The translations under genes were made by a program, and so were the position numbers. A stretch of DNA of 64,000 bases from Heptranchias perlo (taxonomy: Eukaryota): assembly GCF_035084215.1 (NCBI RefSeq), contig NC_090335.1, positions 48,112,001-48,176,000 of the forward strand, read 5' to 3'. Positions 13,831 to 40,291 of the stretch are shown here, one piece after another. The notes under the pieces were generated by a model that was not told the origin of the DNA, did no database searches, and was given only the letters and a program-made list of their open reading frames with translations. How positions within the stretch are numbered: position 1 is the stretch's first letter; every line of letters starts with the position of its first letter.

Positions 13831-14016
13831 GAACAACAGATGAGTCAATAAGGGAAATTAAAAGGTGATTAATTTTACAACTTATAAAATATTTATTTGC
13901 ATGCTGAATGTGATACTGTAACATTCTTTGTAATAGGAACTTACGTAAGTGTTTGGACCACAAATACAATTAATGTATGAAGACACTGATAAAATCAATA
14001 CTTTATTTTTTTCAGC

Positions 14017-14071
14017 ATGCCGTCACTGCACTGTCTGGTATTTTTCTTGTTTCTGCTGTTTATTTGTTGTG
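14017..14071 (+). CDS. Gene 1 leader exon (MPSLHCLVFFLFLLFICC)
   Basis: Acceptor ttttttcag lies one base before the ATG; hydrophobic signal peptide; strong phase-1 donor G|gtaagt at 14071/14072. Implies an upstream 5' UTR exon. Confidence 0.8.
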
Positions 14072-17000: not shown

Positions 17001-20000
17001 TTTCTGAGCCACTTACCTTGTGCCGAGGACTGTTCTCTTAGGACCCCCGTGGTGGCCTTGAGCCGTGTGATTTTATCAGCCGGGCAGCCGCTTCCTGACG
17101 ACTTCCCGGCCCTTTTGATTGGGAAGTCGTCATGCGGAATCCTAATGAATCGCTGAGGCTCCCCGCCTCCGCTCCTGGAAGGTCTGGCTGATTGCTCGCT
17201 GCATTCCCATACATAGATAGAATTGACCTCATAGGGCTCGATTTTCGGACGTCCGAGACGGCGGGTTTGTGGCGGGGGGGGCTCCGAAAATCGGGGATTC
17301 CCGGGGCGGGTCCGGAGCCCAGCGCACGCAACCCCTGGGACTCTTGCCGGCAATTAAAGCCGGCGGGATCCTACTTAAACCAATTAATTAGACAGTTCAG
17401 GTCGTTTGCAGTCCTGTGAATTGTCTTTCAAGTGGATTTTTGTGTCTTACTGAAAATCTCTAAACGTAAATTCAGGTGAAACACCAGGGTGTTACAGCTC
17501 TAAAAACAACAAATTAATAGTTAGTCATGAAGCTATTGGAAATTTACAGTCGGCTCAGATTTTAAAAAAATATTCAGTACTTACCAACAATTTACATAGG
17601 CTGAGAAATTCCTCGGAGCTGGTTCTGTTTTTTCACTGTAACTTTGCCAGAAGTGAGGGGAAAACCAGATCTGAGGAATTTCCCGGCCATAATTTATTCC
17701 ATTGTATGGGTATAAAAATGTGCTTTATTGCTACTTTTTTTTAATAAATGATGAAAAAACTGATCTGGACAGGGGTTAATGTATATTTATATGAATATTT
17801 GGTGAAGGTTTTATTTGTAACTGCATTATTTTCATCCCTTATTCAGAGACGATCACTGTTTCCTCTGATAAGCACTCTGTTGCAGAGGTTGGCAAAGATG
17901 TCACCCTCACGTGTATATTTGAGGGCGACAGTAATCCTACGGTGATCTGGGAGAAAGAAGGTGTGACGGGAACTGTGCACATGTACCTGAATAATAAGGA
18001 TGACTTCAGCGAACAACATGTCAACTACACGAAAAGAACTGAAGTTCATGGAAGCTCAGCCAGCAAAGGAAACGCATCTCTTACACTGAAGAATGTTCGT
18101 ATCTGGGATGAAGGAAGTTACAAGTGCTCTGTCAACACAAACAAAGGATTTGGAGAAGCAGAAGTGAATCTGAATGTTTGGGGTATGTCAGCTGTCCAGT
18201 TCTCTTTCTCTGTCGGTTTGTAATCAGGGTAAAGTGCAGCTCGGTTTCATATTTTGAATTATTACATAAATTTCCAATGGCACCAGAGAAACAAATAGTT
18301 TTCATTTCATTTAATTGTTAACAAAGTTTGTCACAGAAAGGCAATAATAATGGATTCTCACATGGAATAGCGAGCTAAATATACGCCTGAATTTCTGCGG
18401 GGTTCTCCTGATCTCCTGCCGTAAAATCAGCAGTTATGCATCAGGTGGGCTTTGGGTGTCCCCCCACTCCCTAACCTCTAGGTGTTGAACTGCCGGCCGC
18501 CTATTTATCAGGCGAGAAACCAGTGGGTGGAAGTTGAATACCGGCCCCAGTAATTGTGCCGAACTCCATTTTTCCTAGCTAGTGAGTATAGCAAAGCAGG
18601 CAGTATAGCTCAGATCTTCTAGCTTAGTATCACTCTCAGTACCGGTCCAGTAGTATAATTGGTGAAGAGCATCCTATTTCTGTGTCTAAATGTACTGGAT
18701 CACCCGTGCGCAGCAAGGAGAGGAGGATGGAGCGGGGAAGATCACATGCCTGTAAAGATACTTGTCCAATTTTCTGTCCATTTAAATTAATAGAAGGAAA
18801 ATCAGAATGGCTCCCTTACAGGTGTGCTATTCTCGCTTCCTGATTTTCTTTTCGACACTGCGTCCAGGCAATTCAATACCTCAGGCTCAGGAACAGGAAA
18901 ATCTGCCCAATGGTGTTCTTAGAGTTAACAAAAAAACCTGAAAAAGTGACATTTGATGGATTTATTCTAATTTACATCAAGAAAAAGAACCACAATAAGA
19001 CCAAAATGGCAATGTTTACAAAGAAACTTGGCTCATCAGGACCATGTAATCATCTATATATCTTTATGCTGGAATTTGGGGCTTTGGATTAAATAAAGCT
19101 TTCAACTCATTAGTGTTTTTTTGTTCTGAAGTAAACACCATTGGTTACAGGCACATTCTTATCTATGTGGTGCTCTATATAATGACATGCTAAAGTTCAG
19201 TGACTATAATTCATATTTCTTTCTTAGCAAAAAGTAATGATGGTATCCATATCTCACGGAAGTCTGATGAAGTGCTGTCTTGCCAATCATCAGGGTGGTA
19301 CCCAGCCCCAACGGTTACCTGGCATGACAAATCTGGTAACAACTTGAACAAGGATGGTAAACTAACCCTGACAATAGACAACAATGGACTTTATAACATG
19401 ACACATGACCTAAAACAACACCGTAACTCGAAGAATCAGTATATCTGCACCATAAAGCATAAGTGGATGGAAGATCGTATTCGAGTGGTATTCTCAGGTG
19501 AGCTTATTTGTGAGGTTAATGCTTATGTTAAAGGTAACTTAACAGACCATTGTAACAGTTGTGGAAAAGAAATATATCTGTTGGGTAGAAGGAGGAACAC
19601 AGCAAGAACACGACCAAAGAGGCGGAGTAAGGATAAAAATAACCTAAGGAGAGGCAGAAATATTTTAAAGACACAGGAAACGTATACCTTGAAATTGTAC
19701 GGTGTGATATTAGAGTGAACGCTTAACATAGTCATTTGAAATTTCTTTGTCTGGTGCATTAATGGATGTATTAACCCAACAAGAGGGATTCATGAAATGT
19801 TTATTTGCAGACAGAAAGTAAAAACCCAGATCAATAATTTAAGGGATAAATTGAGTAAAACTGTTATCACATGTTAGGAATTGACTGATGTTAAAAGAAT
19901 TCTTGATATCAGTCTGCACAAATAATTGGATTAATGTCTTGTTAAAATAGCAGCTAAAGAAATGTTATTAATACAAATACATGATGTATGTTTTAGTATG

Positions 20001-22502
20001 GGAGTATTGCATTGTGTGATTTCACCCACAGTTCTAGTTTTGTAAAACTATTAGATTGACCAAAAATGAAGAATCTTTCGCTTGAATGTGACCCTTTTTA
20101 ATCTGTCAGTTTCCTCAGGAGTTGAAAGCTTAAATAAGGAACATATAGAAAACCCAACATAGATTCATATTTGTTTCAATAAGGAAACATGGGTATCCTC
20201 AAACTGGGAGTGCATACTGAAACAGGAAGGGTGTACTCCAACAGAAAGGATATACTCAAAAAGGGAGGGAATACTCAAACAGGGAGGGCCTGCTCAAACA
20301 GTGAGGAAACTTTCTATCTATGTTAAAAATTAGCATCTTTATCCGTGCTGTACTTGAAATTGTTCTTGAGGAAGAAAGTCAGGGAATGTGAGGACAGCCA
20401 CTTCAGGCCTAAGCAAATTTAGGGCCTTGTGAGTTTCTATCCCGGGGTTTTAAAGTAAGTAGGTGAGAACGTTGCAGAAGCCCTACTATAATCTTCCAAA
20501 GTTCTCTCGATTCAGGAACTATTCCTTTAGATTGAAAAATTGCACACGTCACTCTGCCATTTAAGAAAGGTGAGAGAAGGAAACTAGGGAATTATAGACC
20601 AGTTAGCCTAACATCTGTTGTCGGGAAATTACTAGAGTCTATAATTAAGGATAGAGTATCTGAACACCTTGAAAATTTTCAGCTGACCAGAGAGAGCCAG
20701 CATGGATTTGTAAAGGGTAGATTGTGCCTGATGAACCTGATTGAATTTTTTGAAGAGGTGGCTAAAGTAGTGGACAGGGGAATGTCTATGGATGTTGTTT
20801 ATATGGACTTCCTGAAGGCATTCGATAAAGGCCCTGATAAGAGATTGTTAGCTAAAGTTGAAGCTCTTGGAATTGAGGGAAAATTAATAACCTGCGTAGG
20901 AAATTGGCTGAGCGGCAGGAGACAGAGTATGGATAATGGGCAGTTACTCAAATTGACAGGATGTGACTAGTGGTGTCCCACAGGGATCTGTGTTGGTGCC
21001 TCAACTATTCACTATTTATTAACGACTTAAATGACGGGATAGAGAGCCACATATCCAAGTTTTCCGATGACACAAAGATAGACAGCATTGTAAGCAGTGT
21101 GGATGGAAGCATAAAATTACAGAGAGATATTAATAGATTAAGTGAATGGGCAAAACTGTGGCAAATGGATTTCATTGTAGGCAAGTGTCCATTTTGGACC
21201 TAAAAAGGATAGATCAGAGTACTTTCTAAATGGTGAAAAGCTCGAAACAGTGGAGGTCCAAAGAGACTTAGGGGTCTATGTAAATAGATCATTAAAATGT
21301 CATGAACAGGTACAGAAAATATGAAAAAGGCTAATGGAATGCTGGCCTTTATATCTAGAGGACTAGAATACAATGGGGTAGAAGTTATGCTACTGCTATA
21401 CAAAGCCCTGGTTAGACCACACCTGGAGTATTGTATTCAGTTATGGGCACTGCACCTTAGGAAGGATATATTGACCTAGGAGAGAGTGCAACGTAGATTT
21501 ACTGGAATGATACCTGGACTCCAAGGGTTAAATTATGAGGAGAGATTACATTATCTAGGGTTGCATTCCCTGGAATTTAAAAGATTATGGGGTGATTTGA
21601 TCAAGGTTTTCAAAATATTAAGGAGAACTGATAGGGTCGATGGAAAGAAACTATTTCCGCTGGTTGGGGAGTCTAGGACTAGAGGACATAGCCTAAAAAT
21701 TAGAGCCAGGACTTTCAGGAGTGAAATTAGGAAACACTTCTACACGCAAAGGGTGGTAGAAGTTTGGAACTCTCTTCCACAAACGGCAGTTGATGCTAGC
21801 TCAATTGTTAATTTTAAATCTGAGATTGATAGATTTTTGTTAACCAAAGGTATTAAGGGTTATGGAGCTAAGGTGTGTATATGGAGCTAGGTCACAGATC
21901 AGCCATGATCTCATTGAATGGTGGACAGGCTCGAGGGGCTAAATGGCCTACTCCTGTTCCTATGTTCCTATGAATAAATCAAAATGTTCTCATTTTTTAA
22001 AAAGTAATTTTACATGAATATTACAATCTCCACAGCTGGATTAACAAACTTTGGGACATTTACACTGGTTGTAGCTTATTAGCTCTTGAGAAGCTTTAAA
22101 AGATTGTTGTTAGTGGTGCTGAATGATTGGTAGCTATCTTTTGGGTTCCTATTAACAAAATCACATCTTGAAGACGTGCACATTTCAAAACTGTGTTCTG
22201 TTGTTAAAGAAAAATAGATACTTCTGTCATTTTTTTTAATGGAAGGGGAACTAGCCCAAGGTTAAATATAAAATGGAAATCACCCACACTCTTGCTTTTA
22301 CAGTATTTGAAATAATCTGAAGGTATCTTGAACAATTATCTTAGATATTGCCAACCTCTATTGTGATGGCACTGTTTTTACACATCTGCACATCATAACA
22401 CAGCACTAGCAGAAATACTGATATGTCTTTATATTTCCTTTATTTTCAGACATGGGAGCGATGATTCGTTTAGATGATGGAAAAGATTCGCCAGAATTAT
22501 AA
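14017..22502 (+). CDS. VTCN1-like: Gene 1 (spliced): B7-family IgV-IgC protein, V domain VTCN1/B7-H4-like; exons 14017-14071, 17847-18182, 19228-19497, 22450-22502; 237 aa, no TM in this model
   Basis: All introns are GT-AG and phase 1, and the 714-nt joined CDS is open from ATG to TAA. The V domain carries B7-H4-like motifs (W.KEGV.G.VH, KD..SEQ, GNASL.LKNV, D.G.YKC, T.KG.G.A). The C domain carries the B7/butyrophilin motif C.S.GWYP.P.V.W. Orthology to VTCN1 versus another B7/BTN-like member is not proven. Confidence 0.8.
15838..15972 (+). mobile_element. tRNA-derived SINE 5' fragment
   Basis: A-box-like TGGCTCAATGG and degenerate B box, followed by a SINE-like body. Confidence 0.55.
16650..17420. 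mobile_element. GC-rich non-autonomous DNA-transposon (Harbinger-type MITE) fragments
   Basis: 16840-16970 is closely similar to 61325-61465 (aggccaaacctgcc.ggaac...gaggcc.agt.aggtaagttt); family assignment is inferred. Confidence 0.5.
17599..17688. mobile_element. 90-bp MITE with 16-bp TIRs and a 3-bp TSD
   Basis: GGCTGAGAAATTCCTC ... GAGGAATTTCCCGGCC, flanked by ATA on both sides. Confidence 0.7.
17847..18182 (+). CDS. Gene 1 IgV exon (ETITVSSDKHSVAEVGKDVTLTCIF...VIWEKEGVTGTVH...GNASLTLKNVRIWDEGSYKCSVNTNKGFGEAEVNLNVW)
   Basis: Acceptor attcag|, donor G|gtatgt, 336 nt open; canonical B-strand Cys, C-strand Trp and DxGxYxC; overlaps ORF 17942..18223. Confidence 0.93.
19228..19497 (+). CDS. 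Gene 1 IgC exon (AKSNDGIHISRKSDEVLSCQSSGWYPAPTVTW...NQYICTIKHKWMEDRIRVVFS)
   Basis: Acceptor ttcttag|, donor G|gtgag, 270 nt; B7/BTN-type C domain with two Cys; overlaps ORF 19200..19718. Confidence 0.9.
20196..20309 (+). repeat. Degenerate 6 x 19-bp minisatellite (TACTCAAACAGGGAGGGNN)
   Basis: Six aligned units read directly. Confidence 0.75.
20435..21972 (+). mobile_element. CR1 LINE 3' half, degraded, in intron 3 of gene 1
   Basis: ORFs 20722, 20970 and 21486; TTCCTATG tail. Confidence 0.9.
22450..22502 (+). CDS. Gene 1 probable terminal coding exon (DMGAMIRLDDGKDSPEL*)
   Basis: Strongest acceptor downstream of the C exon (ctgat branch site, long pyrimidine tract, tttcag|); phase-1 join stays open to TAA at 22500-22502. 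Confidence 0.6.
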
Positions 22503-22621
22503 ATCAAAAGCTGTGTTGCCGTCGGAGACTTCAAATAGTTTCTCTGAACAATTCTTTGATCCTCATTAATGCATTGCAAAACTTTTCCAGAAGGAAAACT
22601 ACGGATGTTATACCCATTTAA

Positions 22622-23471
22622 TTGTAAACAATTTTACAACACCAAGTTATAGTCCAACAATTTTATTTTTAATCCCACAAGCTTTCGGGGGCTTTCCCCT
22701 TCCTCAGGCGGTGTGGAAATGAGATTTTCGAATCCGTCGCATTTTAAGATCACATAACAATGCCTGGTGATTACTGCCCGTTGCCAAGGCAATCACAGTG
22801 AGCAGACAGAAAGGTGTCACCTAAAAAGGCCACCGAATATACAAACCCCCAAAAAAAAGAGAGAGAGACAGAACGAAGACAGTCAATGACCCGTTATATT
22901 AAAAACAGATAACATTTGTTCGCTGGTGGGGTTACGTGTAGTGTGACATGAACCCAAGATCCCGGTTGAGGCCGTCCTCATGGGTGCGGAACTTGGCTAT
23001 CAATTTCTGCTCGACGATTTTGCGTTGTCGTGTGTCTCGAAGGCCGCCTTGGAGTATGCTTACCCGAAGGTCGGTGGCTGAATGTCCATGACTGCTGAAG
23101 TGTTCCCCGACAGGGAGAGAACCCTCCTGTTTGGCGATTGTTGCGCGGTGTCCGTTCATCCGTTGTCGCAGCGTCTGCATGGTCTCGCCAATGTACCATG
23201 CTCTGGGGCATCCTTTCCTGCAACGTATGAGGTAGACAACGTTGCAGGAACGTAGTCTGCTCACTGTGATTGCCTTGGCAACGGGCAGTAATCACCAGGC
23301 TTTGTTATGTGATCTTAAAATGCGAAGGATTCGAAAATCTCATTTCCACACCGCCTGAGGAAGGGGAAAGCCCCCGAAAGCTTGTGGGATTAAAAATAAA
23401 ATTGTTGGACTATAACTTGGTGTTGTAAAATTGTTTACAATTGTCAACCCCATCACCGGCATCTCCACATC
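22622..23471 (-). mobile_element. Penelope-like retroelement insertion: GIY-YIG endonuclease C-terminal fragment between about 187-bp inverted pLTR arms
   Basis: ORF 22932..23264 (NVVYLIRC..C...YIGET...LRQRMNGHR...VGEHF...H...E...I......GLN); arms 22621-22807 and 23255-23441 with 2 mismatches; perfect TSD ATACCCATTTAA at 22610-22621 and 23472-23483. Confidence 0.92.
23351..23387 (+). ncRNA. Minimal type I hammerhead-ribozyme-like motif (PLE type); further copies at 22675-22711 (-), 4790-4828 (+) and 4735-4773 (-)
   Basis: CCGC-CUGAGGA-A-GGGG-AAAGC-CCCC-GAAAGCUU-GUGG: stem I, core box, stem II, GAAA box, palindromic AAGCUU in place of stem III. Confidence 0.65.
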
Positions 23472-23788
23472 ATACCCATTTAAAGAATTGTCTGTTTCTT
23501 TGCTATAGATCAAGGCATGAATAAGGAATACTTTTGCCTTTGAAAAAAACTCACTGAGTAACTGGGAGAGAAATTCAACTGACAGCTGTCCCTTTTGCAC
23601 CTGAAAAACGTTAGAAAATCGGGGCTTAGGGGGCACCTCGGCCGATCCATTGACCCTGGTGTCCTGGGCCTGTAAATAGGTGAGCAGCCCACCCGCCTGA
23701 AATAGGCAAGAGGCTGCTTAAATGTGCAAATTGGAGCCTCCGTCTGTTGTAGGACCTCGATTCAAATTTAGGTACAAATGGATGGAGC

Positions 23789-29635: not shown

Positions 29636-30322
29636 ACATAGAATCATAGAATCATAAAAAGCTATGGACAGAAGGAGGCCATTCGGCCCATTGTGTCCAT
29701 GCCGGCCGAAGAAGAGCTAGCTAGCTTAATTCCACTTTCCAGCACTTGGTCCGTAACCCTGTAGGGTACAACATTTCAAATGCTCATCCAAGTATCTTTT
29801 AAATGAGTTGAGGGTTTCTGTCTCTACCACTCAGTCAGTGAGTTCCAGACCCCCACCACCCACGAGATGAAAACATTTCTCCTCAGCTCTCTTCTAATCC
29901 TTCTACCAATTACTTTAAATCTATGTCCCCTGGTCACTGACCCCTCTGCTAAGGGAAATAGGTCCTCCCTATCCACTCTATCTAGTCCCATTATAATTTT
30001 ATATACCTCAATTGAATCTCCCCTCAGCCTCCTTTGTTCCACAGAAAACAACCCCAGCCTATCCAAACTTTTCTCATAGCTAAAATTCTCCAGCCCTGGC
30101 AACATCCTCGTAAATCTCCTCTGCACCCTCTCTAGTGTAATCACATCTTTCCTGTAATGTGGTGACCAGAACTGTACACAATACTCCAGCTGTGGCCTAA
30201 CCAATGTTTTATACAGTTCAAGCATAACCTCCCTGCTCTTATATTCTACACCTCGGCTCATAAAGGAAACTATCCCATATGCCTTTTTAACCACCTTATC
30301 TATCTGTCATGCTACCTTCAGG
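29636..30322 (-). mobile_element. CR1 LINE 3' fragment
   Basis: ORF 29824..30294; CATAGAAT tail repeats at 29636-29657. Confidence 0.9.
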
Positions 30323-30767: not shown

Positions 30768-33700
30768 GTAAGCGTTCTCTTTTACCCCAGTTAACATTTA
30801 TTCTAGTTGTACTCAGATCATTTGGATTTTATGTTCCTACTTGTAATTTTATGTCCCAGGGCCTGCTGTCGGTCTGAGAGTGATCCAGTCTCCTTCAGTT
30901 CTGTCCCTCCTGAGAGGACAGACAGCTCGGATCAACTGCACCCTGTTACCCGGAGAGGAGCGGGTGGATTCGGTGAGATATTACTGGTATAGAACAAGAG
31001 ACAATCCTGGCATCAGAGGCAACGAAACTAAGAATTTCCTCAATCAAAGCTCTCGCGTGTCTGTGTCTGAGGGTTCGCTTGTCATTCGGGAGGTGATTGT
31101 GAAAGATTCAGATACTTACCACTGCCTGGTTCTTAAAGAGACGCCTCGACCCGGGAGAACCTTGACAGGAGAAGAAACAGAACTGAACATCCAAGGTAAT
31201 TATGAAATAAAAACAGAAAATGTTGGAAACGCTCAATAGGTAAAGCAGCATCTGTGAAGCGAGAACCAGAGTTAACGTTTCAGGTCGATGACCATTCATC
31301 AGAACTGGAAGAATTTAGACATTTAAGTTTCTAAGGTCATGGACCTGAAACGTTAATCCGGTTTCTCTCTCCACAAATACTGCCTGACCCGCTGAGTGTT
31401 TCCAGCATTTCCTGTCTTTATTTCAGATTTCCAACATCCGCGGTATTTTGCTTTTGATCCATGGTAATTAGATTAACTAAAACTGAAATAATTCAATATA
31501 TGGGGCAAAGGAAACAGAAATAGCCGCACACACATCTAATCTGGGACTGACATGTTCTGTGCACTGGGAGCTAGGCTGAATACACCAGCGTTTAGCTTTA
31601 ATTCCACAATAACCATTCAACAGCAGGGACTTTCATATAGTTTTAAAACTTCGACGGAAGAAAAACAACCAAAAGACAAAACTGTAGAATGCTGACACCA
31701 ATATTAACGGCTGAATATTATTTATGTAAGAAGCGAATTACAAATAGCTAAACGGATTTTGTGAACTAAGTATTGTCAATTTATTTCAGTTTTCTTGACG
31801 ATATTGATCCAAAGAAAAATAAACGGAATTTGTGCCCGATAGAAACTTATTGTGAAGTCACGGGATATTATTCTGACCCGTTTTTCATTGTTACATGTGT
31901 GTTATATTTTATTATATGTATCTGGTGATTTGTATATTGAGACACAATCTAATCAAATTGATTCTGCAGTTTCCCATTTAATATCAAATATACACGTTTT
32001 ACATCTTTTACACAGTTGTTCTCTATATAATATTTGCTGTAACTCAGATTGTTATAATTTGAGTTATTTTAATGTGTTTTTTTAGCGGAACCTCAAGTCT
32101 ATCTCTCTGCGGATCCAGAGAATGAAGTTGCTGGGATTCAGACTCTGATTTGTGTGGCTGTGGGATTTTTTCCGAGAGATCTGAACATTTCTTGGATTGT
32201 AGAGGGAAATGTCTCCCATCAAACAGAACAGGGCTCCCCGACTGTAAACAGTGACGGCACCTACAACCTGAGCTCCCGGCTGTGGATTAGAGACACTCAC
32301 TGGGACCGGGGAACGGTCGTCACCTGTCAGGTACAACACGTTACAGTCCTCGGCTCAGTGAGGAAAAAGATCAGTCACAGCGGAGGTAAGTTGTTTACGA
32401 AGGGGATAAATCCCACAGTTCGCTACTCCCAGTTACTGTTAATATACGGAGGTTAAAATAGCAATTTTGTACAACCATATGTAAAACGCGACTCATTAAT
32501 CCGGATAGAATTACAAACAGTAACGCGGTATGAACACTGGAAACATACGGTCTCAATTTTATACATAGCAATGAACAAATTGCACTTCTAAATAAATTAA
32601 ATTGATACAATGGACCCGCGGTGTTTTATTGGTAAATATTACAAATATTGCTGGTATATTGAGAAGGTAGGGGGTCAATTGAAATGGGCAACAATAACCA
32701 ACTAGACTGAAACGCAAACAGCTGGAAATTCACAACAGCTGGGACCTGATGTAATATCTCAAATATTTCTCTTTACAGATGCTAACTGACCTGCTATGTA
32801 TTTCCAACATTTACGATCTTTTGTGCTTTATTTATGCCGACTAGATAGATTCGCTTTTAGTAACTGCGTTGTACAGCAGAGAGTAACTCAAAGAAATATA
32901 AAAATGGCATGCAAACACCAGCGAGTTTTAAACCGTTGTTCTAATACTGAGCTGTTTAAGAGCTGCAGTAATTTATAAACAGCCCACTGTGGAATCGCTC
33001 TTAACTCCTGAGTTCTAGTATGAAAAGGGGCTGACTCGATAAAATATGATAAATGACAAAAAAGCACAATCACTAAATATCATTTGTTTAACTGAAAAGT
33101 TCTGCATCACTGAATTAATTTAATTTATTCAAGCTTCATGAATCGACAGAGAAAAAGTTGCCGGAACCATAATGGACAACGTTTAAACAGTACAAAATAG
33201 GCAAATAAAACACCTTCATATTGGATATAAGGACATCCCGATCGTGGAGGTTATGCCTCAGAACCGCTGTACTGTGCTCACTCTGAGTTACCTTGATTTC
33301 TATATTTGAAAAGGAAGAACTTAGAAGGAAGGGGAGGAAAGGGACGTGAAATAAGGTTAGGTAAAAGCTAGCACGGACACATGAGCAATGGGCCGAATGG
33401 TCTCCTGTGCTGTAATTTCTATAGTTCCGATTAACAACCCTTTGCCATTTAATCAGTTTACAGAATTCTCAATTTCCGTAGCAGCTGTGAATAAACTGCA
33501 CACATTTTTGCAAATAAAGCGCCCAATATTACCAAACGAATACTGTGCATATCAATGCAGAAGTGGCATTATAACATTTACATGTCTTCCACCAAGTCTC
33601 CGCTTATTTATTCAGTTATGTACACAGGCAATCGCCCTGATTTCAGGTTAAGGGTGATATTGCACCCCTACATCTTTGGATGCAGAATGAACAGTCTTAC

Positions 33701-36700
33701 AGTCACTAACCCTGCCAACTCCATTGTTTAGTTAAATTACAAATCACGTCGATCTTTTAGATTCTGAAGGAGAATTTGTCCATTCAGTTCATTCCTTCAC
33801 ACCCCAGACCATTAAAAGGCACTGTATCCTGTTTCCATCCCTGCTCATTAAAGCCCAATTAATAATAATATGACTTTAATCCCCAATCTCGACGTTTTTT
33901 TGTACAATTATTTAGCGCGTGGTTGTAACCCACTTCTTTAAGGCAACATGTGCAAATGAAACAGCGAGAAGACAGATTTAAAACATACAAAGACACCGAT
34001 TAGCCGCCAGCAGCGGTGAGAGCTGCGTTTACACAGCCCGCTTCAAGCGCTTGAGATGGTGAAGGTTGTGAGATGGCGTGGGCCAATTGTATTTGTGCGT
34101 CTGCAGGAAACTTTGCATAATAATCTTGGACAGCAGTGAATTCATTACTGACTTGAGAAGTATTAGGGAATGGGAGCACAGGGGCTTGCCTTTGGCTGCC
34201 ACGGTTTGGTTGATGCATAGTGTTTTTTTGAGCGCGTATCAATGCAGAAGCGACATTATAACTCAGAAGACAACAGAATGCGCTAAAAACGTTGGGGGTA
34301 TGAGATTTCCTCTTGTAGGCTGCCTCCCATTGGTTTCTGTTTCCAAAACGTGCAGTACAAATACAGTCTTAACTTTAAAAAAATGTATTTTATGCTGCCA
34401 TTATGTGCTAATGGAAGCATAAAATATTGACCTGCCAGGCCGGAAAACTAACAAAAGCTGATCAACTGCTTCAGAAAAGCTCACACAGCCCCAGAAAAGC
34501 TGGTAGCTCAATAAGAACCTTCAATATAGGCCACCTCACACATGAAGTCAAGGAGCTAGACTGAGAGTGTAGTGGGATATGGGTTTGCCATAACAATCAG
34601 CAGGTATAGCCAACAAACAGCAACAGTAGTGATTTAGAAATTACTGAAGAAAGATGTGAATGTTGAAGGCATGAGATTTATTTTCTATGGGAGAACCACC
34701 CCCTTCAGAATAGTTTGACTTTTGATAACTGATTTTGTGTATGTATTGACATTTTGGAACTTACTGTAATTCTAAATCTTGGTGTGATTTTAAAAAAATC
34801 AAACAAAATGCATCACCCCATTTTATTTCCAAACTCAGGCAATTCCATGATGCAGTCACTTGTATTCTCAAATAAAGATATTTGGCGTTATCTCAAAAAG
34901 GCAGCTGCAACCACACTTTAAGAAAAGAAACCTTCAAATGAAACAACAGGCAGGCATGCCCCAAATGGTTCCTTTGAGGAAAATAAACGTTTTAAAAGCT
35001 GTATTTTAGCAGCTTATTTACTATATACAAACTTCTTTTGAAGTAATCACTAAATAAGCACACCTTTAAATGTGACTCTCAGAAACCATCAACTCATTTT
35101 CAATTGTCCACCTCAAGTTTGCACCCATGAAACAATGAGAGAAAGTAGCACCTGATTTATTCTAGTTCTGTCCCCCAACCAGTCAGGTCCTGACAGGCTC
35201 CAGTCCCACCATTCAAATGATCTGATTGATTTATACTGACAACCTACAATGCAGGTGAAAAAAAGTTGAAGTTTCTTGTGAAACACTGACAAACTGACAG
35301 GTTGGAATATTAACCGTCAGTTTGAAACACTGATGGTTGTCATGTATGCATTGATGCAAAACAAAAATTGTGTAAGCCAACTTTAGGAAGTAGTCTTGCT
35401 AAGATTACAGTTGGATATAGTCAAATCTATGGGGTGAGGGGATGGGAAGGAGAAAGCATGCATAAAGTACTTCTGCAATTGGCCAACATAATTTGAGCAG
35501 AGAGTTGAGGTTACGCTGCCCTCTTCAAACCTGTGCTACTGCTGTAGCAGAGAGTAGCGGGGGTGGGATGGGGGTGAGGGAGGTTCAGTAAGAAGGTGGC
35601 AGAGCATTGGTTTTGTGCACTCAAGCACACACAGATAATTTGCTTACTAATCTCTGACCATGGTAGATTTATTACCGATCATGAAGAGTTAGAGAATGGA
35701 AACACAACAGGCTGTCTTAGCATTTAACATTATTTTTGAATATCTATACAGATGTTTGGTACAAAGTGAAAATATCACAAGACCCATCTCTTAGGGTGCA
35801 GGTATACAGCTAATTTTGTAATGATGCAAAGTAGTTTTGGGTGTGCTTCAATTAAAAGTGGTAATATAACTCAGGAAGCTATGCAACACACTAAAGCAGT
35901 GAGGTTTGACATCGCTCCAGGCAGTGGTGACATCCCTCATGAATAATGGGGCTGCCATCATAGAGATCTAGGACTCCATGGAAGAATGGGCTTTCTTCTC
36001 CAACCAATAAAAAACTGCTACATTTAATTGCGGATTATTAGTAGAAATAGGATAATGCATGATTATGCAATATTACTATTTCTACAGATGGAAGTATTCT
36101 TGACATCTATTCCTCAATGGAGTTCCTGCTGGGTGAATCCTATTGGTATATTTCACAAGAACAAGCCAATTCAAAAACTCATAAATGACAGATATTAACT
36201 ATATTTCTGATTCAATATATGGTTTAAATAATATACATGATGTGAATTTAAAATTATTATATGTAACTTAATATACATTGGTCATGTTTGTAATAAGCAA
36301 CTAATGATTTTGATTCACATTTCAATCATAATTTTGAAGGTTTCCCCAAATACTACTATTACTTCAGCCTGCTGAGTCTCATCCTCGTTGCACCATTTTG
36401 TCTCTGGATTATTAAGAGTCAGTGCAATAAACTGAAGAATGGAAAAGGTAATCAGATACAATGTGCATTTTATTTTGGTACTGAACTAAACATATCAAAA
36501 ATGAAAAACATATTTAAATCCTAGAAGAAATAATTCCAATAAAAATACATTTTAAAAAATGAAAACCAATTACATTTTCCATCTAAAATACAGTATTTGG
36601 AATGAACATACTAACTGTATACTAACTGATAGAACATACTATCTGCAAAATTAATATAATTAAGCTAAGGGAACTGTACTAATATAGGTGTATATGGAAA

Positions 36701-39700
36701 TATTTTAACACAGCTAAATATAAATATATTCACATTCAACTATCCTAACATAGCTTTCATGTGTAAATGATGAAGCCTCAAATGTAAGTAAGTTAAAAAT
36801 GGGAATAGTGATACTCACTAGTTATTGACTCTTTTTACTGTTGCTTCTCACTACATACACCACAATACTATAAGTTACCCTAAGGCATTTATGATATTCA
36901 TGATATTCATTTAGATTCATCGATCCATGACAAAAATGTAGATGGTCAAATAATGGGAACATTGGTGAATGCATCAGTAAATGAAGTAAGTATATTGTTT
37001 GATATTTTTCCTACACTGTATGCATCTGCACTGTGCTGAACTGACCGTGCATTATAAAGCAATGTCAACTTACTTAAATAAATTGGCAGCACTCTTGGAC
37101 ATGATGCACTGGGAACACAAAGGGGCCAGAATATCTGGCGCCAGTGGGGTGGATTTTTTTTTACCACCTGGGTGTTAAGCATTGCCTGGGCGGAGCGCAG
37201 CGAGAAAAATTGGGTGGGGAGGATCACATCACTGTTATGGGGCCTGCCCAACTTTCCTTCCAGCATTAATTGGTACTAGCATGGAGTTTGCAAAATCTTT
37301 CTGCAAAATCCATTCCAACTTCTTCTATGTACTCAGGGCCCACAGTCTCAAGGGTCAGCTTCTCCTGGTGCCTTAGGGGTTTGATATTCAGATGGGCTCC
37401 AACAGTTTTGTGCCATTTCCTTCTCTTAGGGGCTCCTTTTTCCTGTAAGCAGGTATAAAATGATGAAGTGTAGGGAGTCTGAAAAGTGCACATATTGCCA
37501 CAGTACATCCAAACTTATACACAACTCAATGAGCTAGCAGCATTCACATAGATGATAATGGAAGCTACAATGGTGGGCATAGTTATTCTGATGAGTGAGC
37601 ATCATAAGTTTTCCTTGGAAGCAGGCATGTTAATGTGTGAAAGAAGCTGAAGAATGGCACGTGTCCACATTCCAGATGCAGCTGGTTAAGATAAAAGTCT
37701 TTGTTCCAGGTATGCTGTACCCATACACTTGATGTAGGTAAATGCAGCAACTCTTACCTTGGCAAACTTCCTCCAGGTGGATTTTTTTTTCATCTGGACA
37801 GGAGACCTGGACCTATACATTGGGAGGGTTGCATTAAATCATTGTGACCTCATGCCAGGCAAACCAGACAGCTATGCTTTGTACACCTCTGTCCCAAGAA
37901 GAGCAGTCCCTTTTTGTTGCACCTCTTCCTGAAAAGCTCTACAAGGCTGAGTCAAAAAAGTTGGTTGTCATTTCACTTGGCCCAGGCCTGCTTCCATCTT
38001 AAGCCTTCTTTGACTTGATTTCAACAAGTTTCACCTGCCAAAAATAACCTATGCTGAATGCCGCAGAACTCCTTTAAATAATGTTGGCAGCACTTCTTAT
38101 GAATTGTTGCTATGCTGGGTATACCGTTCACACCATTAGCTTGCTCGCTGCACAGGGATCAATGAATAATTATGTGAATAAGCAGTCTCTGAATGTCGCA
38201 GAAGGTCTACTCCATGTTCCTTCATTGCGAGCTGTGCTTACAGCATCCAGTCTGGGCTGCAATTAGCTCAGACAGGAAAATCTACCCTTAAGTTACAAGC
38301 TATCCAGGGCAAGGTTGTCCAAGGATTACTGACATTAGCAATATAGGTCAGACTTGGGAACTTTAATACACTTTGTTTGTAAATTCTCCAAATTGAAGAA
38401 GTTTTGGGACCAATGCTGAAGCAACACGTAAGTCTACCGGCCTTGCTACGATAATCTAGGGAAATACTAAAGGTGGATGGGGAAGGGTGCTATTTCTCTA
38501 GAACTACCATTTATTTAGTTCTAACACTTTTGGCCCTTAGTTAGAAGATGATAGCATTGTAAAGGTTGCAAGCCAAAACCAACTGAGGAATATTCTTTGA
38601 AATAATAATAATCAACTATGAAAGCGATGATACTAGGATTTTGCATTGGATCTCAGTCTTGTTAGCTAATTGTTCCAGGATGTAAAATGATGAATTGCAA
38701 TCCCCCAAAAAATCTTTGTTTTTTTATTTGGCTACCCCACCTGGTTCAGATGAATGACAATAATAGTGTCATTGGATCTTCCCTTGCCACAATGGCGTAT
38801 GTGGCTTATGTAATTCACATTTAATGGACTATTTTATTTTAAACTATTGCTGAAGTTTAACTATTAATGAATCCCTCTTTGAAGTTCTGTCATTTTTTAA
38901 TCAGTTTTCGCTCTTCTACTCCTGAAAGCATTTACTCGCACTGGAGTATGGCACAGCAGCTGTCACATAATTTGTCCAGATGGCTTTTCTTCATGTGTTT
39001 AGTCCAGGCAGTGAACATTAGCAGGTTGTTTGACCATAGGGGTAACATGGGCAAGTCCAATCATGTGCACATGCACACACACTTTCCAGCAGGAGTCACT
39101 GGGAAGCATTCAGGAGTACAAACCTTTTTCTATTCCTAGAACAATAGCACTCAGGCCAACTGTACTGTACTAGCTGTTGCCGGATTGAGATCAGGGAATC
39201 AAAACTGAAATCTTCTGGTCTGTATGGATTAATAAATAGTGGGTGAGGCTTAACCCACTAGTCCATCACTAAATATACTGCAGCAGAGAGGGATTGGGGT
39301 TGATTGTTGTCTCTGGCACATATCGGGTGGGTGGTGAATGGGGTGTCTGCTCCGCCCACCCAATCACATCGGCGGAGACCGGATCGATTTTAGCGGCCGG
39401 GTCTCACTTAAATACAACAGGTGAGCTGTCAGCTCTAATTACGCTACTTATAGGGAGCTTGCTGTTTGGGTGGGCCGGAAATCTATCGGGCTGGCCACCA
39501 TTTAAAGACATCCTGCATTCTTGAAAGGCAAGGTTCACTTTTCAAAGATGGTCTGTAGACAGTGCATTATTGAGGCAGCAGGCAGCATGATATTGGACAG
39601 GGCCCCCCAATTCTCCAATACAGCTGTGCAAGTCCAAATGAGGAATAGGAAGGAGGTCGTTTTTACCAGCGAAGGGTGCCAAGTGCCCTGGCAAATTAGC

Positions 39701-40291
39701 CAGCAGCAGTGGAGAGAGCTGGCTGGGCATATAAATCGTTGATTTCAGTGGAATGAAAATCAGACAGGGTCTCTAAAGGGTATGTGATCCACCCGGTCAG
39801 AGTACTGCCCAGGCAGTGAAGACAAAAATCTACAGTTTAAGTTGCTTCCCATTGGATGTTTGCTGTTGGAGTTGGATTATTGCCATTTCCATGTAGCACA
39901 ACTGGAAGACAACATTTATGTTAATTAAGGTCATGCCAAAAAATGGTATAATGAGAAAATGTGCCGTGTTTTTAATGATATCAGCATGTATGTTCTTGTT
40001 GTTTATTGTTACTTTATTACTATGTTACAGGGTAATGTTTCTGCCAGCAATGAATCTCTGCATTATGCATTTGTTCAATTCAATCATCCTCTAAAAAGGA
40101 AGCAAAAACAGGAATTGAAAAGACCACAGCAGGACCAGGCAACTGAATATGCTGTTTTAAAGGTCAAAGATAAAAATAATCCATTCTATGAAGAATCGGT
40201 ACATTACTCCACAGTCGGCATTTGTCCCACATCAAAGAGAACACAAACTGCTAACTACAATGCAACCATATATGTTTCGCTTAAGCACTAA
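30719..40291 (+). CDS. Gene 2 (spliced): non-rearranging VJ-C1 type I membrane inhibitory receptor (PRARP/VJC1/SIRP/NKp30-like architecture); exons 30719-30767, 30860-31195, 32086-32385, 36340-36447, 36915-36985, 40031-40291; 374 aa
   Basis: Six exons with GT-AG introns of phase 1,1,1,1,0 join into an open 1125-nt CDS: leader, V with J-like end, C1 domain, TM, and a cytoplasmic tail with four tyrosine inhibitory-type motifs. Confidence 0.85.
30860..31195 (+). CDS. Gene 2 VJ-type IgV exon (GPAVGLRVIQSPSVLSLLRGQTARINC...YYWYR...DSDTYHCLVLKETPRPGRTLTGEETELNIQ)
   Basis: Acceptor cccag|, donor G|gtaat; Ig/TCR-like V.QSP start, C, WYR, D..TY.C, and a J-like G strand TGEETELNI in the same exon; overlaps ORF 30880..31239. 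Confidence 0.93.
31203..31457. mobile_element. Penelope-derived inverted-repeat element with a hammerhead-like motif (31270-31306, - strand)
   Basis: Imperfect inverted arms; the - strand reads AGUU-CUGAUGA-AU-GGUC-AUC-GACC-U-GAAAC-GUU-AACU. Confidence 0.7.
32086..32385 (+). CDS. Gene 2 C1-set exon (AEPQVYL...TLICVAVGFFPRDLNISW...NSDGTYNLSSRL...W...TCQVQH...)
   Basis: Acceptor tttttag|, donor G|gtaagt, 300 nt; C1 hallmarks P.VY, C...GFFP..L.I.W, N.DGTY, C.V.H; overlaps ORF 32154..32456. Confidence 0.93.
36340..36447 (+). CDS. Gene 2 transmembrane exon (GFPKYYYYFSLLSLILVAPFCLWIIKSQCNKLKNGK)
   Basis: Acceptor ttttgaag|, donor G|gtaatc, phase 1-1, 108 nt; about 21 uncharged hydrophobic residues followed by basic residues. 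Absent from the ORF track. Confidence 0.8.
36915..36985 (+). CDS. Gene 2 short cytoplasmic exon (DSSIHDKNVDGQIMGTLVNASVNE)
   Basis: Acceptor atttag|, strong donor GAA|gtaagt; its 71 nt convert phase 1 to the phase 0 required by the last exon. Confidence 0.72.
38930..39268 (-). mobile_element. Old tRNA-head SINE, possibly DeuSINE-type
   Basis: Degenerate tRNA-like head at the right end on the - strand; body recalled as Deu-domain-like; unverified. Confidence 0.4.
39290..39830 (+). mobile_element. Harbinger-derived remnant with Myb/SANT-like fragment
   Basis: RAPQFSNTAVQV...RKEVVF...QQWRELAGHIN in ORF 39521..39742. Confidence 0.55.
40031..40291 (+). CDS. Gene 2 terminal cytoplasmic exon with LHYAFV, TEYAVL, VHYSTV and TIYVSL motifs
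   Basis: Acceptor tgttacag|; open to TAA at 40291 (ORF 39959..40291); two ITIMs and two TxYxxL ITSM-like motifs. Confidence 0.87.
   Translation, partial: GNVSASNESLHYAFVQFNHPLKRKQKQELKRPQQDQATEYAVLKVKDKNNPFYEESVHYSTVGICPTSKRTQTANYNATIYVSLKH

What the first reader, a model, noticed from the sequence alone, without database searches (positions are those of the whole stretch)
22420..22502. B7-family protein that appears to lack a membrane anchor and ends in ...GKDSPEL
Seen: the best acceptor after the IgC exon gives a 17-residue hydrophilic tail and a stop. I found no convincing TM exon between 19498 and 22449. Established: B7 proteins are normally membrane-bound. Inference: a natively secreted B7 (soluble ligand or decoy). 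The terminal xxEL also loosely resembles KDEL-type ER-retrieval signals, which would instead imply an ER-resident role.
Basis: partly seen in the sequence, partly recalled or inferred. Interest (0 to 1): 0.7.

Follow-up and report, generated by a model that had tools for sequence, protein, structure and literature searches.

The report
Anchorless B7-H4 across cartilaginous fishes
This shark's single copy of the likely B7-H4 immune-checkpoint gene is spliced into a protein with no membrane anchor, as are the matching proteins from other sharks, rays and a chimaera, so a ligand that sits on the cell surface in mammals is likely a secreted molecule in these fishes.

Summary
The gene has five exons and encodes a 237-aa signal peptide + IgV + IgC + 17-aa hydrophilic tail. 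RNA contigs join 19497 to 22450 in 3 of 4 runs of this species (one sample) and 4 of 4 runs of a relative; no join to a TM exon was listed. It is the likely VTCN1/B7-H4 orthologue: its IgV matches human B7-H4 best (75 bits against at most 46 per domain for others), it is single-copy, and it lies between TRIM45-type and MAN1A-type genes. All 19 chondrichthyan orthologues counted, chimaera included, lack TM and GPI signals. By the mammalian KDEL-receptor code, whose gatekeeper residues are kept in 3 of 3 shark receptors, SPEL (Pro at -3, Ser at -4) should not be retrieved. Best reading: a natively secreted B7-H4 (about 0.6). Main rival: weak KDEL-receptor retrieval with regulated release (about 0.2). 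The sequences are annotated in databases; I found no paper noting the anchor loss, but two key B7-evolution papers could not be read.

The parts
5395..5469 (+). 5' untranslated exon (5' limit is where an RNA contig ended, not a mapped start); donor GT at 5470; no ATG in these 75 nt
   Evidence: 75-nt loose end before 14016 in run X2 maps here; no upstream in-frame ATG
14016..14071 (+). Exon 2: ATG at 14017, predicted cleavable signal peptide (about 18 aa), phase-1 donor
   Evidence: junction 14071>17847; small residues at -3/-1 in orthologues; SignalP not run
17847..18182 (+). Exon 3: IgV domain (C41-C112; N-glycan sequons N78, N94), best match human B7-H4 IgV
   Evidence: N78 invariant in 20 aligned sequences
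19228..19497 (+). Exon 4: IgC domain, Pfam C2-set_3 (C149-C204; sequon N187), phase-1 donor at 19498
   Evidence: junction 18182>19228
22420..22449 (+). Polypyrimidine tract and AG acceptor of the last exon
   Evidence: used in RNA contigs
22450..22502 (+). Coding part of last exon: 17-aa hydrophilic tail and TAA; no TM or GPI signal
22461..22475 (+). Residues 225-229 (MIRLD): predicted extra beta-strand after the IgC G strand; hydrophobic pattern conserved to chimaera
   Evidence: AlphaFold model, block pLDDT about 60; alignment; solved B7/butyrophilin chains align only to about residue 224-226
22488..22499 (+). Terminal SPEL, predicted disordered; [D/E]L in 16 of 19 orthologues, commonest ending S-x-D-L
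22503..22625 (+). 3' UTR covered by the spliced RNA contigs, up to the edge of a repeat element
   Evidence: table 8

Best explanation
This gene is the likely shark orthologue of VTCN1 (B7-H4); its transcripts join the IgC exon to a short last exon with no membrane anchor, so the product is likely a secreted two-Ig glycoprotein. Shown: exon structure, splicing, lack of TM/GPI signal, single copy, and the same anatomy in sharks, rays, skates and a chimaera. Inferred: the signal peptide is cleaved; the last exon adds one beta-strand that caps the IgC domain where a stalk and anchor would follow in mammals; the terminal SPEL is too poor a KDEL-receptor ligand to hold the protein in the ER; the released protein acts through its IgV face as a diffusible ligand for the still unidentified B7-H4 receptor, or competes for a receptor shared with membrane-bound B7 relatives. 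It cannot be a decoy for its own membrane form unless such a form exists, and none was seen.
For: Junction 19497>22450 in 3 of 4 and 4 of 4 runs, two organisms, two studies. All 21 sequences scored (19 after one per species or cluster) lack a hydrophobic segment after residue 30: best KD19 0.27-1.32. The 19 form one clade apart from six paralogous shark V exons, support 96/97. IgV scores 75.3 bits on human B7-H4 (4gos) against 46 for MOG and 38-39 per domain for B7-H3 and PD-L1; 3 other shark B7-like V exons tested score 60-61 on 4gos. RING + B-box + filamin gene about 50-60 kb upstream and a GH47 mannosidase about 260 kb downstream match the human order TRIM45, VTCN1, MAN1A2 (PMC9394163) and the salmon block (PMC13752854). 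One close copy in the genome for both domains. KDEL code: Pro not tolerated at -3, Ser weaker at -4, Asp weak at -2, and CSDL and CTDL reporters secreted (PMC2140024); ADEL and DDEL secreted, with D50 and E117 as gatekeepers (PMC8248988). R47, Y48, D50, E117, W120, R159, R169 are present in 3 of 3 shark receptors found. Three species end without [D/E]L. In mice, soluble IgV-IgC B7-H4 is biologically active through its IgV (PMC2760136).
Against: No protein-level evidence of secretion. The last two residues are better conserved than the linker before them (entropy 0.59 and 1.16 bits at -1 and -2, 2.06-2.86 at -3, -5, -6; related sequences, no test), which plain secretion does not explain. Arg at -4 in catshark (RLDL) and chimaera (RADL) resembles working signals RTDL and REDL. 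On whole-protein scores B7-H3 and butyrophilins rank above 4gos, which holds only the IgV; databases label the chimaera protein CD276-like or butyrophilin-like, its branch is long and its synteny was not tested. Only 3 of 20 other V-exon matches were tested reciprocally. In mice the monomeric soluble form blocks signalling and only the Fc fusion is an agonist, so how a soluble-only ligand would signal is open. Rare or tissue-restricted TM isoforms are not excluded.
Confidence: 0.6

Rival explanations
1. The conserved terminal [D/E]L is a deliberately weak KDEL-receptor signal: part of the protein cycles back to the ER and is released when retrieval is saturated or under ER stress, as described for MANF and CRELD2.
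For: [D/E]L in 16 of 19 orthologues at an exposed, low-confidence terminus; kept although the linker length changes; fits the broad XX[DE][FLM] screen pattern; RTDL (MANF) and REDL (GPX7) are on ER proteins (PMC2140024); R-x-D-L in catshark and chimaera.
Against: PROSITE pattern met in 0 of 21; Pro at -3 in 5 of 19 including this species, Ser at -4 in 13 of 19; the nearest tested motifs, CSDL and CTDL, were secreted; ending lost in saw shark (GL), little skate (SD) and Rhinoraja (RK); shark receptors keep the vertebrate gatekeepers.
Confidence: 0.2
2. The protein lacks its own anchor but is displayed on cells, or held in the ER, by binding a membrane partner through the IgC domain and the extra strand, as butyrophilins pair through IgC domains.
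For: The hydrophobic pattern of the tail strand is kept in the aligned orthologues and also in Rhinoraja, which lost the DL; the fold matches butyrophilin ectodomains (Z 19.9, rmsd 1.8, 201 residues); membrane-anchored B7-like genes exist in the genome.
Against: No partner is identified; the strand is equally explained as an intramolecular cap; its pLDDT is only about 60.
Confidence: 0.12
3. The short form is one isoform; a membrane-anchored B7-H4 is made from the same gene in tissues not sampled.
For: Contigs miss rare forms; tissues of the runs are not on record; the TM-exon scan found candidates in only 3 of 5 control genes.
Against: Every one of the 21 scored orthologue records lacks an anchor, as do two dropped variant records (P0169, P0172); the only hydrophobic candidate before the next gene is antisense retroelement; the one minor join seen from 19497 lands in the same last exon.
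Confidence: 0.06

Closest known systems
Mammalian VTCN1 / B7-H4 (B7x, B7S1)
   Same: Signal peptide + IgV + IgC; best IgV match; position between TRIM45 and MAN1A2-type genes.
   Different: Human protein is 282 aa with a transmembrane segment and small cytoplasmic tail, GPI anchoring once proposed (PMC11275172, PMC2760136). The shark protein is 237 aa and ends in a hydrophilic tail.
Soluble B7-H4 (sH4) of human serum and the engineered mouse B7-H4VC
   Same: Same two-domain soluble ectodomain; active through IgV (PMC2760136).
   Different: sH4 is thought to be shed or alternatively spliced from a membrane form and blocks it. Here the soluble form is the only product seen and is encoded directly.
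KDEL-receptor clients with xxDL ends (MANF RTDL, GPX7 REDL, ERp57 QEDL)
   Same: Signal peptide, no anchor, exposed acidic-Leu terminus in 16 of 19 orthologues.
   Different: Efficient signals have a basic or aromatic residue at -4 and no Pro at -3; SPEL and the common SSDL/SPDL do not. No B7 protein is in the list of tested clients that I read.
Butyrophilin and B7-H3/PD-L1 ectodomains
   Same: Same V + C2-set_3 fold.
   Different: Lower IgV scores; these have TM segments, and the solved chains do not align past about residue 224-226.

Membership tests
B7 family | Signal peptide, IgV and IgC domains on phase-1 exons | tested here: met
B7 family | Transmembrane segment and cytoplasmic tail, or GPI signal | tested here: not met
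   best KD19 after residue 30 is 0.28, best KD15 in last 40 residues 0.83; splicing; DeepTMHMM and GPI predictors not available
B7 family | Binds a CD28-family or other lymphocyte receptor | not testable with these tools
   no binding data
VTCN1 / B7-H4 orthologue | IgV closest to B7-H4 among solved human B7-type domains, and better than other shark B7-like V exons | tested here: met
   75.3 bits against 60-61 for 3 of 20 other matches tested
VTCN1 / B7-H4 orthologue | Synteny TRIM45 - VTCN1 - MAN1A2 | tested here: met
   RING/B-box/filamin gene at C11:48.056-48.066 Mb, GH47 gene at 48.393-48.453 Mb; human and salmon order. Naming the neighbours TRIM45 and MAN1A2 is inferred from domains (architecture recalled).
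VTCN1 / B7-H4 orthologue | Groups with bony-vertebrate VTCN1 in a tree | not tested
   no bony-vertebrate VTCN1 sequence was returned; the tree holds chondrichthyan rows only
VTCN1 / B7-H4 orthologue | Inhibits T cells or neutrophil progenitors | not testable with these tools
   needs experiment
KDEL-type ER-resident protein | PROSITE [KRHQSA]-[DENQ]-E-L at the C terminus | tested here: not met
   0 of 21
KDEL-type ER-resident protein | Broad pattern XX[DE][FLM] | tested here: met
   this protein; 16 of 19 orthologues
KDEL-type ER-resident protein | No Pro at -3 and basic or aromatic residue at -4 | tested here: not met
   SPEL; rule from PMC2140024 and PMC8248988; Arg at -4 in 2 of the 16 [D/E]L ends
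KDEL-type ER-resident protein | ER localisation that depends on the terminal motif | not testable with these tools
   needs expression and deletion test

The most novel reading that the evidence does not exclude
In cartilaginous fishes B7-H4 is a checkpoint ligand made only as a soluble protein whose release is metered by a weak, ancient KDEL-receptor signal (xxDL), like MANF; the membrane anchor of mammalian B7-H4 would then be a later addition to a secreted ancestor.
Probability: 0.15. Interest if true: 0.8.

Novelty: new variant of a known kind. Interest (0 to 1): 0.52.

Why it matters
B7 ligands are understood as contact-dependent signals, and the B7-H4 receptor is still unidentified (called 'putative' in PMC2760136; current status recalled). 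A lineage that has kept a single-copy, anchorless B7-H4 from chimaera to skates shows that a conserved B7-H4 function need not require its own membrane anchor. It gives a natural soluble probe for receptor hunting and bears on whether human serum B7-H4 is debris, decoy or a remnant of an older function. The conserved terminal DL is a small puzzle that one deletion experiment can settle.

Tried and rejected
Annotation artefact or wrong acceptor: rejected by RNA junctions. Hidden TM exon at 29835: antisense strand of a retroelement ORF, 63% identical to the RT-type ORF at 8607-10856. Intron read-through after IgC: hydrophilic and basic, no anchor. N-terminal signal-anchor (type II) topology: no ATG upstream in the transcribed 5' exon, and batoid leaders have short hydrophobic cores with A-D-A type cleavage sites; SignalP not run. 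GPI anchor: no hydrophobic C terminus. Truncation by the repeat in the 3' UTR: it lies about 110 nt past a stop shared with other species. Conserved 'EL': 1 of 19. Homodimer prediction: no verdict. No listed run is on record as RNA; the GT..AG joins are what mark them as spliced. The profile search of representatives was filled by multi-domain Ig proteins and gave only the chimaera orthologue as new. No bony-vertebrate VTCN1 sequence was obtained, so ancestral versus derived is open. Literature searches listed no paper on an anchorless shark B7-H4; (six exact phrases) returned 0. Flajnik et al. 2012 was not held and Hansen et al. 2009 was not looked up; either may mention it. The elephant shark genome supplement gave 0 hits for B7 terms, which may reflect how the file is held. 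The supplement of PMC2140024, with the full motif table, could not be read. Earlier-findings look-ups returned nothing.

Full report
Observation. The window holds a five-exon gene on the + strand: a 5' untranslated exon ending at 5469, a leader exon 14016-14071, IgV 17847-18182, IgC 19228-19497 and a last exon from 22450. All coding introns are phase 1. The spliced product is 237 aa and identical to record P0003, which NCBI names VTCN1 of Heptranchias perlo.

RNA. Contigs with all three coding junctions appear in 3 of 4 runs laid at 95% (X2-X4, one sample, depth 312-1180; X1 does not cover the exons) and in 4 of 4 runs of a related organism from another study laid at 85%. The runs are not on record as RNA; the GT..AG joins mark them as spliced. 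The only other join listed from the IgC donor is a minor contig in X7 (depth 8.6 against 112) that lands inside the same last exon.

No anchor. After residue 30 the best 19-residue hydropathy window is 0.28. A scan for acceptors followed by a hydrophobic stretch between 19498 and 30700 gave one candidate, at 29835, on the opposite strand of a retroelement fragment. The same scan gave TM-like candidates after the last Ig exon in 3 of 5 control genes (the three on C8) and missed two, so it is suggestive only.

Identity. The IgV scores 75.3 bits against human B7-H4 IgV (4gos), 46 against MOG and 38-39 per domain against B7-H3 and PD-L1. Three other shark B7-like V exons, of 20 other matches, score 60-61 on 4gos. 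Whole-protein scores favour B7-H3 and butyrophilins because 4gos holds only one domain. Both domains have one close copy in the genome. A RING, B-box and filamin gene lies about 50-60 kb upstream and a GH47 mannosidase about 260 kb downstream. The human list reads TRIM45, VTCN1, MAN1A2 (PMC9394163, passage) and salmon has the same block (PMC13752854, passages). Orthology to VTCN1 is therefore likely; a tree with bony vertebrates could not be built.

Conservation. Searches returned orthologues from sharks, rays, skates and Callorhinchus. All 21 scored lack a TM or GPI segment (KD19 0.27-1.32). Taking one per species or cluster leaves 19, which form one clade apart from six paralogous V exons (96/97; chimaera branch long). 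Dropped before the count of 19: second records P0170 and P0171, chimaera duplicates P0064 and P0168, the N-extended model P0173, an intron read-through model P0169 and a short Logan protein P0172; none has an anchor by inspection. Terminal Leu is in 17 of 19, [D/E]L in 16 of 19, EL in 1 of 19, Pro at -3 in 5 and Ser at -4 in 13. Saw shark ends GL, little skate SD, Rhinoraja RK.

Structure. The AlphaFold model (mean pLDDT 79.6, 14-row alignment) is a V + C tandem with one more strand at 225-229 (block pLDDT about 60) and a disordered 233-237. Solved butyrophilin and B7 chains align to about residue 224-226 (best Z 19.9, rmsd 1.8, 201 residues). In the ESM Atlas structure search of residues 132-237, two clusters named VTCN1 (271 aa, 50 members; 236 aa, 58 members) align through 237, whereas five of the other eight rows stop at 223-224 and three reach 231-236. 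This hints that the extra strand may be a VTCN1 feature; the 236-aa cluster may be this protein's own.

The KDEL question. In the human reporter screen (PMC2140024; parts 1-3 of 7 and passages read, supplement unavailable) every residue but Pro worked at -3, Ser was weaker at -4, Asp weak at -2, and CSDL and CTDL were secreted, while RTDL and REDL occur on ER proteins. ADEL and DDEL are secreted, with D50 and E117 as gatekeepers (PMC8248988, passages). The three shark receptors found keep R47, Y48, D50, E117, W120, R159 and R169 (numbering), so the code probably applies. SPEL fails at -3 and -4. Yet the last two residues are more conserved than the linker, and catshark and chimaera have R-x-D-L. 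Efficient ER residence is unlikely; weak retrieval is possible.

Mechanism. Most likely (0.6) the protein is secreted and works through its IgV as a diffusible ligand or competitor. In mice, soluble IgV-IgC B7-H4 blocks the membrane form while an Fc fusion is an agonist (PMC2760136, passages); human B7-H4 has a TM and short tail (PMC11275172, passage). With no membrane form seen in the shark, a simple self-decoy role is not available, so it must signal as a soluble ligand, compete with another B7, or be presented by a partner. Rivals: weak KDEL-receptor retrieval with regulated release (0.2), display or retention by a membrane partner (0.12), unseen TM isoform (0.06).

Novelty. The sequences are in public annotation under the name VTCN1. 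Seven searches listed no paper that notes the missing anchor; passages of PMC11599192, PMC13262535, PMC12151841 and PMC12227049 did not mention it. Flajnik et al. 2012 was not held and Hansen et al. 2009 was not read, so prior mention is possible. Verdict: real, lineage-wide, a new variant of a known kind; interest 0.52.

Noticed in passing
window 30860-40288 (+): Neighbouring receptor gene: V exon (30860-31200), C1 exon (32085-32390), TM-like exon (36297-36521) and a tail with ITIM/ITSM-like motifs (LHYAFV, TEYAVL, VHYSTV). Near-identical C1 exons at C11:48,033,691 and 48,042,965 (-) and a V exon at 48,086,501 suggest a small inhibitory-receptor cluster around the B7-H4 gene. Motif labels are recalled.
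   Followed up: partly
window 22622-23471: Repeat element in the 3' UTR with a 12-bp target-site duplication (22610-22621, 23472-23483), 188-nt inverted arms and a GIY-YIG fragment (Penelope-like, label recalled); it holds the nearest AATAAA (23395).
   Followed up: partly
window 19498-19533: The first 36 nt of the last intron read in frame to a second donor-like site (AAG|GTAACT at 19534); the chimaera read-through model P0169 has a similar run (8 of 14 residues). Possible conserved alternative donor or splicing element; no such junction was listed.
   Followed up: partly
P0012, P0014-P0016, P0167, P0170, P0171, P0177 (orthologues): The second canonical IgV cysteine (C112 here) is lost in sawfish, skates and chimaera, which carry other cysteines near the N terminus.
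   Followed up: no
run X7, join 19497 to 22492: A minor contig of the related organism enters the last exon about 18 nt downstream; read as printed, its frame closes with TAA four codons early, which would remove the terminal four residues. One low-depth contig; may be an error.
   Followed up: no
G000:C8:2.17-2.53 Mb and C11:54.15-54.16 Mb: A cluster of B7-like V-C genes with TM-like exons on C8, and a V-C-V gene on C11 (HHLA2-like architecture, recalled).
   Followed up: partly
window 8607-10856 (+): Open 750-codon retroelement ORF (CR1-like, label recalled) in intron 1; related fragments at 20536-21887 (RVT_1) and 29827-30306.
   Followed up: no
ESM Atlas: A 236-aa cluster named VTCN1 with 58 members, more than the chondrichthyan records found here; if it includes bony vertebrates, anchorless B7-H4 reaches beyond sharks. 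Members could not be listed.
   Followed up: no
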